DNA of 30,506 bases from a virus. Taxonomy: Duplodnaviria > Caudoviricetes. Of the stretch, positions 7,889 to 16,022 are shown piece by piece. The stretch lies in the IMG/VR virus record IMGVR_UViG_3300020045_000159, positions 1 to 30,506 of that record. One strand, written 5' to 3'. Both the position numbers and the translations under genes were made by a program. Under the pieces are notes generated by a model. That model ran no database searches. It was given only the letters and a program-made list of their open reading frames with translations, and was not told the DNA's origin. How positions within the stretch are numbered: position 1 is the stretch's first letter; the number at the start of each line of letters is the position of its first letter.

Positions 7889-7970
7889 ATTTGATTTGTT
7901 TAAAGTTTCGATGTCTTTCCATCAGTCACATTTTTATTTCAGTTCGTAAACTATGGTAATGACACCATTG

Positions 7971-8039
7971 TAGTCAGGACAGTTCCGAACTGCATCTCTG
8001 TGCTACAATGCACAGGCGTTACCTTACGCTACGCTGACT
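7971..8039 (-). ncRNA. tRNA-like element B (degenerate cloverleaf)
   Basis: AGTCAG(C)G/CCTGACT acceptor, GCGT-AAGGTA-ACGC D arm, CTGTGC-ATTGTA-GCACAG arm, GCAG-TTCGGAA-CTGT T-like arm. Confidence 0.6.
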
Positions 8040-8089
8040 ATATTTGCACTTCCTTTTAGATTTGTTGTCCAGTGCTAACCATTCCGAAG

Positions 8090-8231
8090 TAGTCAGAACA
8101 GGATTCGAACCTGTAAATTGCTAATCGTTGTGAGCCTATATAGCATTCATCTCACCGCTTCTACGATTGCGTATACCAATGCTTTTTTATTGTTTGCAAC
8201 CAATAATAGGCATATATTCCGCCACCTGACT
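8090..8231 (-). ncRNA. tRNA-like element A (expanded cloverleaf, no anticodon loop)
   Basis: AGTCAGG/TCTGACT acceptor, TGGCGGAAT...TGGTATACGC D arm with inserted hairpin, perfect T arm ACAGG-TTCGAAT-CCTGT. Confidence 0.7.
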
Positions 8232-8233
8232 AA

Positions 8234-8476: not shown

Positions 8477-8666
8477 GTTGTGCCTTGTTAATCTTTACAT
8501 ATCCTCTTCCCGATAAGAATGATTCAATACGATCCGTGTCAGCTCCAAGTAGCCATCGCTTCTTTCCCTCTTGCGAGTAATGGTCGTGAAATAGTTTATC
8601 GTAATCTATTTCAACATAGATGGTCTTGTCTGCTGACCGATAGTAATGCTTTCTTTGCTTCTTCAT
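8415..8666 (-). CDS. Hypothetical protein, 83 aa
   Basis: ORF track; ATGA coupling. Confidence 0.65.
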   Translation of the reverse strand: MKKQRKHYYRSADKTIYVEIDYDKLFHDHYSQEGKKRWLLGADTDRIESFLSGRGYVKINKAQHDKFRESLTIELPTSRVLDR

Positions 8667-8884
8667 AGCTTTTCTATTTCTTGTTTAACTTCATTGTAAA
8701 AATACATTTCAGAATCAATATCTGCATTATAAGATATTTCATTTAATATCCATGAAATTTCATCAACTGCGATTAATGCAAGTTTTTTACATTCAAACCA
8801 ACAATAAGATTGAAATGGAATATTATTTAATCCAAAAGTATAATACTTTCTAACTAATTCTTCTGCTTTTTCTTTAGGTGTCAT
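8663..8884 (-). CDS. Small hypothetical protein (MTPKEKA family, copy 1), 73 aa
   Basis: Paralog of 13002-13214. Confidence 0.75.
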   Translation of the reverse strand: MTPKEKAEELVRKYYTFGLNNIPFQSYCWFECKKLALIAVDEISWILNEISYNADIDSEMYFYNEVKQEIEKL

Positions 8885-8885
8885 A

Positions 8886-12920: not shown

Positions 12921-13005
12921 CTTTGATTAGTTTTAGTTTACGATAGTTGTTTTGTAATTCTTTAGCAAGATGTGCTTGCCATTGGTTAAAGGTTAGCTCT
13001 TTCAT
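12865..13005 (-). CDS. Small hypothetical protein, 46 aa
   Basis: Hand-translated MKELTFNQWQAHLAKELQNNYRKLKLIK...; ATGA coupling. Confidence 0.5.
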   Translation of the reverse strand: MKELTFNQWQAHLAKELQNNYRKLKLIKDEKLQKVSRRKSTNLHRV

Positions 13006-13214
13006 GATTTTATTATTTCTTCTTTAACTTCTTTGTAAAAAAATACAGTATTACTTGAAGTATAAAATGGTTTACCATAAATAACTAAACCAAAATTATT
13101 CAATATCTCATCTACTGCAATTAATGCACATTGTTTTGCATCAGGCATTAAGAAATGTTTATTGCCATAATTAAACTTATTAACTAATTCTTCTGCTTTT
13201 TCTTTTGGTGTCAT
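13002..13214 (-). CDS. Small hypothetical protein (MTPKEKA family, copy 2), 70 aa
   Basis: Paralog of 8663-8884. Confidence 0.75.
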   Translation of the reverse strand: MTPKEKAEELVNKFNYGNKHFLMPDAKQCALIAVDEILNNFGLVIYGKPFYTSSNTVFFYKEVKEEIIKS

Positions 13215-14123: not shown

Positions 14124-14411
14124 CTAAAAAGGTAATGGCGAATTATCGTTGTGAGTAGTTGGAGCTTGCGAAGCTACTGGAGCTTCTTTCTTTTGGAATC
14201 CATTTGCTTCCCAAGTATCAAGTTCAATGTAAATTTTACCACTTTGAGCTTTATTGATATTACAATTAACCCATCCATTTTTATCATTTGCTTGTAGGAA
14301 AGCAATAGCCTCATCTACTTTGAACGATAGCTTGCCAATGGCGAAGCTTGGTGCATTATCATTTCTCTTGAAGATAATACCATCTGCGAATACTTTGTCT
14401 TTCTTTTCCAT
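14124..14411 (-). CDS. Putative single-stranded DNA-binding protein, 95 aa
   Basis: Follows ERF; beta-rich core, flexible tail ending LPF. Confidence 0.6.
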   Translation of the reverse strand: MEKKDKVFADGIIFKRNDNAPSFAIGKLSFKVDEAIAFLQANDKNGWVNCNINKAQSGKIYIELDTWEANGFQKKEAPVASQAPTTHNDNSPLPF

Positions 14412-14965
14412 TATTGTAATTGAGATTTACGGTTTGAAAATAATTTTATTTGAGAATCAGATAATTTATAATTGTCGGATAGGTATAAATAATACTTATT
14501 AAGTCCATCAATATCCTTTGCATTGCTTAACCCTAATTCAACATCTGAATCCATTATAACAGGTTTCAATGCGACCACTTTAAGAGCTTCTTCTTTAACC
14601 TGAGTACCAGCTGCATCCAAGTCCTTGTCGGTAATTATTCCAAGCATTGAACTCAAAGCGTATCTTCTAAAGTAAGTAACTCCCGATCCATACGCTTGAT
14701 AATCATTCATATTACCAAGCTTAACCTTTGGAATCTGCGTAAAGCTTTCGAGTTGCTCTCCGCTTTCAACATGGAATAAGATAGTCTTGATGCCATCATT
14801 CTCCAGTAGTTGTGTGAAGCAAAGCTTATGCTTCTTTAACAACGGATTGATAACGCTAAAGATTTGAGGCAAGTCAGCATAAGTATAGTTATGCCCTTTT
14901 GTGTCCTTGTGTATAATTGGACATTCATTTTGAAAGTCCGAAAGTGATTTAATTAGATTCTTCAT
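14411..14965 (-). CDS. erf: ERF-family ssDNA annealing protein
   Basis: YTYADL and QAYGSGVTYFRRYALSSMLGI...DLDA signature. Confidence 0.9.
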   Translation of the reverse strand: MKNLIKSLSDFQNECPIIHKDTKGHNYTYADLPQIFSVINPLLKKHKLCFTQLLENDGIKTILFHVESGEQLESFTQIPKVKLGNMNDYQAYGSGVTYFRRYALSSMLGIITDKDLDAAGTQVKEEALKVVALKPVIMDSDVELGLSNAKDIDGLNKYYLYLSDNYKLSDSQIKLFSNRKSQLQ

Positions 14966-15878: not shown

Positions 15879-15939
15879 ATATTTACTTTGGAATAAAAAA
15901 AACTTTTTTAATTATTTTTTTTAATTATTTTCAAGCAAC

Positions 15940-15971
15940 AAAAAAGGACATCAGTATAACCGACATCCTTT
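15940..15971 (-). terminator. Probable intrinsic terminator at end of late/lysis operon
   Basis: AAAGGA TG TCGGT TAT ACTGA TG TCCTTT followed by U-run (imperfect stem). Confidence 0.55.
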
Positions 15972-16022
15972 CTATTTCTAAACCTTATCAAACTAAACTA
16001 TGAAAAACTATAATGCAATATG

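What the first reader, a model, noticed from the sequence alone, without database searches (positions are those of the whole stretch)
8090..8231. Expanded tRNA-like RNA with perfect T arm and acceptor but no anticodon loop
Seen (minus strand): 7-bp acceptor AGTCAGG/TCTGACT. The Leu/Ser-type D arm TGGCGGAAT..TGGTATACGC is interrupted by a 37-nt hairpin (ATGC..TTATTG..CAATAA..GCAT). The anticodon arm is replaced by a long interrupted stem (AATCGT/ACGATT, GTGAG/CTCAC). The T arm ACAGG-TTCGAAT-CCTGT is canonical and no CCA is encoded. It starts 2 nt after a stop codon. The inserts are themselves base-paired, so this does not look like simple decay. Inference: a tRNA-elbow mimic, for example an RNase P/Z processing signal in the early mRNA, a decoy for host anti-phage tRNA nucleases, or a scaffold carrying variable inserts.
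Basis: partly seen in the sequence, partly recalled or inferred. Interest (0 to 1): 0.75.

Follow-up and report, generated by a model that had tools for sequence, protein, structure and literature searches.

The report
Phage tRNA frames with swappable inserts
This phage sequence keeps the outer frame of a leucine-type tRNA but carries a different insert where the anticodon should be; it belongs to a very large phage family in which near-identical frames hold hundreds of unrelated inserts that are exchanged between genomes, likely as a way to make stable small RNAs that decoy host defences.

Summary
Real, and one member of a large family. The 142-nt element (8090-8231, minus strand) has tRNA acceptor, D and T arms, a 37-nt D-loop hairpin and a 54-nt insert replacing the anticodon and variable arms. 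About 1,500 IMG/VR stretches hold its 3' frame; 5 of 286 sampled members have a normal anticodon arm, and 224 inserts form 189 clusters. The frame covaries as RNA (11-24 and 15-48 pairs) and has the same U-1/C74 flanks as true tRNA genes beside it, so it is likely matured like a tRNA; lacking encoded CCA is normal here. Main new result: inserts are swapped. One slot holds 6 unrelated inserts in 8 phages, two near-identical phages differ at 3 slots, and this exact element sits in 7 unrelated upstream contexts. Best reading: a natural tRNA scaffold whose constant ends double as recombination arms and whose cargo likely decoys host defences (untested; no RNA data). Not an intron-containing tRNA. 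Closest known: T5 RNA1/RNA2 (annotation only), engineered tRNA scaffolds, T4-type PeSL cassettes. The scan noted this class before on other DNA; I found no paper. A cultured Bacteroides phage, BS-TP2, carries a sister form, so it is testable.

The parts
8090..8231 (-). Whole element 1: tRNA frame with two inserts (142 nt including discriminator A73)
8225..8231 (-). Acceptor stem, 5' strand (start of the constant 5' frame)
8216..8224 (-). U8, G9, D stem 5' strand, A14, A15, U16 (rest of the constant 5' frame)
8179..8215 (-). 37-nt hairpin inserted in the D loop before G18G19; one compensatory change in L365/L384; inserts at this site recur in at least 7 unrelated insert types
8169..8178 (-). 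G18G19, U20, A20a and D stem 3' strand
8115..8168 (-). 54-nt insert in place of anticodon and variable arms; ends in U48; no canonical anticodon loop, and none recoverable by one excision
8098..8114 (-). T arm (constant 3' frame)
8089..8097 (-). Acceptor 3' strand, A73 and C74; no encoded CCA
8046..8082 (-). Spacer hairpin module that also follows four other copies of this element
7971..8039 (-). Element 2: degenerate second frame (6 of 7 acceptor pairs, 4-bp T stem, short stem with 6-nt loop); ARAGORN tRNA-???
7909..7928 (-). Small hairpin module (TGAC, stem, GAAAGA loop) that often lies near family members
7889..8233 (-). Variable intergenic slot between the 80-aa and 114-aa ORFs: empty in 7, palindrome in 5, hairpin module in 5, another family member in 1 of 18 close relatives
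14411..14965 (-). Erf-like single-strand annealing protein: candidate for the exchange (role inferred)

Best explanation
It is one cassette of a natural tRNA-scaffold system: a constant tRNA frame holds an insert that is exchanged between phage genomes, the frame is likely cut out and matured like a tRNA into a stable RNA, and the insert it displays likely acts as a decoy or inhibitor of host RNA-recognising defence proteins. Steps: (1) shown: the frame is constant, inserts are unrelated and are swapped, moved, duplicated and deleted with breakpoints in the frames; (2) inferred: exchange is homologous recombination through the 16-26 identical bases at each end, for instance by the phage's Erf-like annealing protein; (3) inferred from covariation and flanks: the transcript folds into the tRNA L-shape, RNase P cuts at +1, the 3' end is trimmed to C74 and CCA is completed, and LeuRS may charge it; (4) inferred, weakest: selection acts on the cargo, in an arms race with host defences.
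For: Frame constant when chosen by its 5' end only: 124 of 140 hits have T arm plus acceptor, 101 of these the consensus 3' acceptor strand. RNA-level covariation, one member per insert family (215): C11-G24 125, U11-A24 11, others 8 of 144 scored, p 2e-10; G15 with C48 in 6 of 7, A15 with C48 in 9 of 187, p 5e-7; T stem 19 two-sided changes, 35 one-sided kept, 6 broken. Flanks equal to true tRNA genes: U-1 234 of 282 vs 172 of 247, C74 273 of 282 vs 243 of 247. A14, A15:U48, G18G19-A and A73 together in 161 of 264 members, 30 of 31 Leu tRNAs, 33 of 213 others; E. coli tRNA-Leu lacking anticodon and variable arms stays chargeable on these elements (PMC9976931, passages). Swapping: of 33 pairs with both flanks homologous 4 share the insert, against 4 of 4 for true tRNAs; one slot has 6 inserts in 8 phages; L166/L201; same behaviour in a gut sister family with another acceptor sequence. 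Cargo not random: helix at the anticodon-stem position 41 of 162 vs 21.6 +/- 4.2 shuffled, tetraloop hairpins 18 vs 7.2 +/- 2.8; 74% of 224 inserts fold better than their shuffles; this insert pair is kept without indels in 11 contigs and 7 upstream contexts; inserts lie almost only inside frames; one 20-kb stretch has 10 copies, all inserts different. Engineered scaffolds of the same design give stable RNA in E. coli (PMC3753655, passages). Host nucleases that cut tRNA anticodon stems or variable loops exist (PMC12445682 abstract; PMC13096335 passages).
Against: No expression or processing data. No target, partner protein or linked gene: 70 downstream ORFs share no Pfam family. Insert folding is only modestly above chance (mean z -0.68; 11% below -2) and the window's own 54-nt insert has z 0.02. 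Covariation within this subtype is one pair and not significant (64 of 500 shuffles); 98% identity may mean recent spread, not selection. No strong shared motif among 171 inserts. Acceptor stem shows little true covariation (2 two-sided, 36 one-sided, 12 broken). Degenerate and collapsed frames occur (element 2; 16 of 140, including L212 with no interior). The 33 pairs come from only 6 slots, most from one, and the true-tRNA control is 4 pairs from one phage pair. The D-loop insert of this subtype may hinder charging.
Confidence: 0.4

Rival explanations
1. The frame is a cis-acting punctuation and shuffling cassette: RNase P and 3' trimming cut the long early transcript and free the next small gene, and the repeats let accessory genes be gained and lost (as PeSLs do); inserts are tolerated passengers.
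For: An ORF starts within 40 nt downstream in 84 of 247 members vs 43 of 234 tRNAs, p 1e-4, peak at 14-23 nt; a 47-aa ORF plus one copy is lost between two 3' frames in L201; upstream and downstream flanks reassort (74 of 113 pairs); PeSL precedent (PMC2839356 abstract).
Against: Two thirds of members have no ORF close behind, including this one; inserts are long (median 54 nt) where deletion would be cheap; structured bias.
Confidence: 0.25
2. The frame itself is the active part: a non-decoding, probably leucylated tRNA body that soaks up toxins or enzymes reading the acceptor end or elbow (or donates leucine outside the ribosome); the varied inserts only keep it off the ribosome and away from anticodon nucleases.
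For: Leu identity set kept; C74 kept; frame sequence nearly invariant.
Against: The acceptor sequence differs wholly in the gut sister family and is 2 or more changes from each of 36 tRNAs read from three Bacteroidota genomes, which fits homogenisation by recombination better than mimicry of one host tRNA; does not explain up to 10 different inserts per phage.
Confidence: 0.18
3. Inserts are antisense or guide sequences that pair with phage or host mRNA.
For: Great sequence diversity inside a stabilising frame; an earlier scan note suggested this for a Lactiplantibacillus family (e1-5323500, unchecked).
Against: Longest antisense match of this element's inserts to its own genome is 9-10 nt, as for shuffles (9-12); of 201 inserts searched against 1.77 Mb of masked loci 13 hit, none reversed into a gene by my reading of the contexts. 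Inserts are purine-rich. Host transcripts were not tested.
Confidence: 0.07
4. Decaying or selfish tRNA-derived repeats, spread by recombination without benefit to the phage.
For: Degenerate copies (element 2); continuum with real tRNAs, 5 of 286 have true anticodon arms and the T stem equals that of phage tRNA-Ile(UAU); slot empty in 7 of 18 close relatives.
Against: Tertiary-pair covariation, kept processing flanks, D-loop inserts confined to one tolerant site, no transposase or integrase seen beside it, persistence in compact genomes such as this one, which has no true tRNA gene.
Confidence: 0.07
5. Ordinary tRNA gene with introns that are spliced out.
For: A helix at the anticodon-stem position is enriched.
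Against: A canonical loop can be rebuilt by one excision in 7 of 162 inserts vs 6.8 +/- 2.5 shuffled, and not in this element; no common anticodon among 51 ARAGORN calls on members; phages with the family also have normal Leu tRNAs.
Confidence: 0.03

Closest known systems
Phage T5 RNA1 and RNA2 (AY543070.1, annotated 'tRNA-like stable RNA with unknown functions'); T4 RNA C and RNA D
   Same: Phage RNAs in tRNA regions with acceptor and T arm and no normal anticodon arm; RNA1 has a Leu-type D arm, RNA2 has the T arm of the common family variant. T4 RNAs C/D are expressed late, function unknown (PMC9697503 passages).
   Different: Other acceptor sequences; one copy of each; the RNA1 region is alignable over 80% or more of the query in 294 of 494 records with a match, so wholesale swapping is not evident there (not examined closely). 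Known only as annotations; no family model.
Engineered tRNA scaffold (Ponchon/Dardel design; PMC3753655 passages)
   Same: Acceptor, D and T arms kept, anticodon stem-loop replaced by cargo, processed by the host into stable RNA.
   Different: Laboratory construct; here natural, with extra D-loop inserts and cargo exchanged between genomes; processing only inferred.
PeSL cassettes of T4-type phages (PMC2839356 abstract)
   Same: Short repeated non-coding cassettes whose recombination shuffles and deletes accessory genes.
   Different: PeSLs are promoter-terminator units; no promoter above chance and no terminator here; here the repeat is a two-armed frame and the part between the arms is itself exchanged.
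Canonical tRNA (Rfam RF00005), tRNA-Leu and tRNA-Ile(UAU) of the same phages
   Same: Arms, tertiary pairs, flanks; D arm closest to Leu, T stem closest to Ile(UAU).
   Different: No anticodon arm in 281 of 286; this element is below the Rfam cut-off, though several other members pass it.
Bacterial Y RNAs (PMC4201824 abstract) and allo-tRNAs / irregular tRNA polycistrons (PMC5389517 passages)
   Same: tRNA-like RNAs handled by tRNA enzymes; some allo-tRNAs are non-translating and lie near toxin-antitoxin systems.
   Different: No Ro60-like gene among the 48 window ORFs scanned or 70 downstream ORFs; 7/5 not 8/4 or 9/3 geometry; allo-tRNAs keep anticodons.

Membership tests
Canonical tRNA | 7-bp acceptor, D arm with G18G19, 5-bp T arm | tested here: met
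Canonical tRNA | 5-bp stem with 7-nt anticodon loop (U33, R37) | tested here: not met
Canonical tRNA | Rfam RF00005 gathering score or ARAGORN call | tested here: not met
   21.4 bits vs 29; no ARAGORN call
Intron-containing tRNA | Excision restores a canonical anticodon arm | tested here: not met
   none for this element; 7 of 162 vs 6.8 by chance
tRNA-Leu identity (LeuRS substrate) | A73, A15:U48, G18G19, A20a | tested here: met
   present in this element and 161 of 264 members; defined in E. coli
tRNA-Leu identity (LeuRS substrate) | Actual leucylation | not testable with these tools
   needs in vitro charging
T5-type tRNA-like stable RNAs | tRNA frame without anticodon loop in a phage non-coding region | tested here: met
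T5-type tRNA-like stable RNAs | Sequence homology beyond D and T motifs | tested here: not met
   no cultured phage record covers 80% of the window region or of another member
T5-type tRNA-like stable RNAs | Accumulates as a discrete stable RNA | not testable with these tools
   no RNA holder listed
PeSL cassette | Recombination between copies swaps or deletes the DNA between them | tested here: met
   (products seen; mechanism inferred)
PeSL cassette | Strong promoter plus terminator stem-loop | tested here: inconclusive
   6 sigma-70-like sites vs 7.8 by chance, 0 terminators; the scan does not cover Bacteroidota promoters
Y RNA | Encoded beside Ro60/Rsr and matching Y RNA models | tested here: not met
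allo-tRNA | 8/4 or 9/3 acceptor/T geometry | tested here: not met
   7/5
tmRNA | G3:U70 acceptor, tag ORF, no D stem | tested here: not met
   U3-A70 in 276 of 282; D stem covaries; no tmRNA call

The most novel reading that the evidence does not exclude
Phages of Bacteroidota share a communal library of hundreds to thousands of small RNA effectors, each loaded in a standard tRNA frame that both stabilises the RNA and serves as its recombination arms: an integron-like cassette system for RNA anti-defence factors.
Probability: 0.35. Interest if true: 0.92.

Novelty: new variant of a known kind. Interest (0 to 1): 0.74.

Why it matters
Phage tRNA regions are known to counter tRNA-cutting defences, but the tRNA-like stable RNAs of T5 and T4 have had no function for decades, and annotation tools either miss these elements or mislabel them as tRNAs with arbitrary anticodons (51 such calls). 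A family this abundant, with a fixed frame and exchangeable cargo, turns that old question into a screen: each insert can be cloned in its frame and tested against defence systems, and a cultured phage with a known host carries one. If the cargo is active, it is a large unexplored source of natural RNA inhibitors or aptamers and a natural counterpart of an engineered expression scaffold.

Tried and rejected
Rfam: no family for this element; only tRNA at gathering level in 15 loci; in 8 more loci tRNA plus three sub-threshold hits. Cultured phages: no record covering the region; an Enterococcus phage hit was an ordinary tRNA. RNA data: no RNA holder listed among 8 runs; this says nothing on expression. 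A 17-nt search for this insert gave 7 loci, 5 of them unrelated coding sequence; two further scans gave 82 loci, of which 10 held the element. Intron model, antisense to own genome, capture of inserts from elsewhere in the phage loci, second T-loops inside inserts (0 of 162 under a strict pattern, though a related 7-mer is enriched): not supported. Shared downstream protein: none. My recalled idea that the acceptor copies host tRNA-Ile was not borne out: no match among pattern hits in 4 genomes or 36 host tRNAs read, but host Ile(GAU) was not among them, so it is open. The single-flank control for true tRNAs (20 of 168 and 14 of 99 same isotype) is confounded because flanks include neighbouring tRNA ends; I replaced it by the both-flank test, which has only 4 control pairs. 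Literature: 9 searches found no description of this family; Fremin 2023 (PMC10690425, passages) lists five tRNA-like candidates; frame motifs were absent from 6 supplementary files, 3 files could not be searched and may hold it. PMC4810235 (passages) had nothing relevant. SPP1 and Lactiplantibacillus members named in earlier notes were not checked.

Full report
Setting. The window is a whole 30.5-kb virus record of a tailed phage: terminase, portal, tail fibre, endolysin, replication genes and an Erf-like annealing protein, all on the minus strand. Its terminase is closest to Nonlabens (65%) and Riemerella (48%) phages, and 9 of the 18 GTDB records holding the 3' frame are Bacteroidota MAGs, the others mostly short contigs, so the host is probably a member of Bacteroidota. 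It has no true tRNA gene; ARAGORN's one call is element 2.

Observation. Rfam and ARAGORN do not classify it. The inner structure is therefore plausible but unproved.

A large family. The exact 3' 23-mer is in about 1,500 IMG/VR stretches (135 loci from 6 of 64 parts), the 5' 16-mer in about 1,600 (126 loci from 5 of 64 parts); my sample is thus under a tenth of that collection. Chosen by the 5' end alone, 124 of 140 distinct hits have a T arm and matching acceptor strand 69-278 nt on, mostly of the same sequence; most of the other 16 show damaged versions. In one freshwater run summed contig depth over the 3' frame is about 30,000 against about 60 over this insert (a rough sign only). I worked with 282 distinct elements (it includes a few mis-joined entries and true tRNAs), a strict set of 264 (at most one change per acceptor strand, at most 200 nt), and a cleaner recount of 286. 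Five of the 286 have a canonical anticodon arm. Inserts have a median of 54 nt and 224 of them form 189 clusters, 165 singletons. Copies are co-oriented and clustered within a genome, up to 10 in 20 kb, often among true tRNA genes but also alone, as here.

The frame is selected as RNA. With one member per insert family (215 of 264), D-stem pair 11-24 and the tertiary pair 15-48 covary across the insert, and T-stem changes mostly keep pairing (relatedness is not modelled, but the members carry unrelated inserts). Flanks match those of 247 true tRNA genes in the same loci: U at -1, A at -2, C at 74, CCA rarely encoded. That RNase P favours such flanks and that CCA can be completed from C74 is my own knowledge, not a call. 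Hairpins inserted in the D loop before G18G19, as here, recur in at least 7 unrelated insert types. The leucine identity set is present in 161 of 264 members; in E. coli these elements suffice without anticodon and variable arms (PMC9976931, passages). The D arm is nearest to phage tRNA-Leu, the T stem to phage tRNA-Ile(UAU), and L087 is a normal Ile(UAU) tRNA in the family frame, so the frame probably arose from, and still recombines with, true tRNA genes.

Inserts are exchanged. Of 62 pairs with homologous inserts, 7 share an upstream and 6 a downstream flank. Of 33 pairs with both flanks homologous, 4 share the insert; these fall in 6 slots, one with 6 inserts in 8 phages; true tRNAs keep their identity in 4 of 4 such pairs, all from one phage pair. 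L166 and L201, 93-99% identical over most blocks, differ in insert at 3 slots; one insert of L201 sits in another slot in L166; L201 has one insert twice; and a 47-aa ORF with one whole copy is missing from L201 exactly between two 3' frames. The window's own element occurs in 10 other contigs of small and large phages, without indels, with 7 unrelated upstream flanks counting the window, and in all 4 runs laid, where the matches of three end at 8233. In 18 close relatives the same intergenic slot is empty (7), holds other small modules (10) or holds a family member with another insert (L288) (L295 lacked upstream DNA and was left out; 11 more distant relatives lack it there). A sister family with a wholly different but paired acceptor, present unannotated in cultured Bacteroides phage BS-TP2, shows the same pattern: 13 distinct sequences with about 7 unrelated inserts in 64 of 68 loci parsed, one insert in 52 of them. 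So each gene pool has its own frame sequence, which fits homogenisation by recombination. That the exchange is homologous recombination through the frames is inference from these products.

What the inserts do. They are somewhat structured, purine-rich, without a strong common motif, almost never found outside frames (13 of 201 hit masked loci, nearly all in damaged or related frames; shuffles 1-3), not introns and not antisense to their own genome. No gene travels with them, though a start codon follows closely more often than after tRNAs. I commit to the scaffold-with-decoy-cargo model at 0.4: it explains the RNA-level frame, the length and diversity of cargo, many different inserts per phage and their spread between unrelated phages. 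It has no direct evidence for the defence step; the punctuation model (0.25) and the frame-decoy model (0.18) remain strong rivals and are not exclusive.

Comparison and novelty. T5 RNA1 and RNA2 have this architecture and are annotated as stable RNAs of unknown function; the engineered tRNA scaffold has the same design; PeSLs shuffle genes by repeat recombination. It works like these but fails membership of tRNA, intron-containing tRNA, Y RNA, allo-tRNA and tmRNA. Nine literature searches found no account of the family or of insert exchange; three supplementary files of Fremin 2023 could not be searched. Earlier notes of this scan describe the same class on other DNA, and one gave me the T5 lead; a word search for cassette exchange found no note. 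Verdict: real; new variant of a barely known kind, with cassette exchange as the new feature; interest 0.74.

Noticed in passing
window 7909-7928 (-); L286, L288, L291, L297, L299, L312, L414: Small hairpin module (TGAC, covarying stem, GAAAGA loop), 49 variants in the loci, near family members more often than near tRNAs (26 of 282 vs 4 of 247 flank hits); no Rfam match.
   Followed up: partly
window 8663-8884 and 13002-13214 (-): Two ORFs of phrog_21441; in runs X1 and X5 the ends (8660-8692, 8855-8885) are constant while the middle is replaced in many contigs: a protein-coding cassette with fixed ends.
   Followed up: no
window 8046-8082 (-); L317/L363, L335, L364, L386: Hairpin module with conserved stem and variable loop directly after this element.
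   Followed up: no
L284, L289, L293, L294, L298, just before the 114-aa ORF: An AT-rich palindromic insert of about 75 nt occupies the same slot; part of it also appears in L291, L312 and L095.
   Followed up: no
L087, L215, L031, L097, L133: Family frames carrying canonical-looking anticodon arms (TAT, TTT, GAA, TAA): possible chimeric tRNAs with a Leu-like or mixed body, candidates for mistranslation or nuclease bait.
   Followed up: partly
L181, L190, L229, L277: The 3' acceptor strand is interrupted or replaced; in L181, L190 and L229 by a related hairpin, perhaps another mobile module inserting at this site.
   Followed up: no
L212: A collapsed frame of 28 nt in which the 5' and 3' frames are joined with no interior.
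   Followed up: no
L414:1430-1536 (PQ571275.1, Bacteroides phage BS-TP2): Unannotated sister element, with the hairpin module before it and a start codon about 20 nt after it.
   Followed up: yes
L106, L144, L112 inserts; T5 RNA2: Some inserts hold a second T-loop-like hairpin resembling one in T5 RNA2 (7-mer enriched).
   Followed up: partly
window 15936-16010 (-): Weak match to Bacteroidetes FopS sRNA (28.9 bits, cut-off 56), probably a 3' UTR terminator.
   Followed up: no
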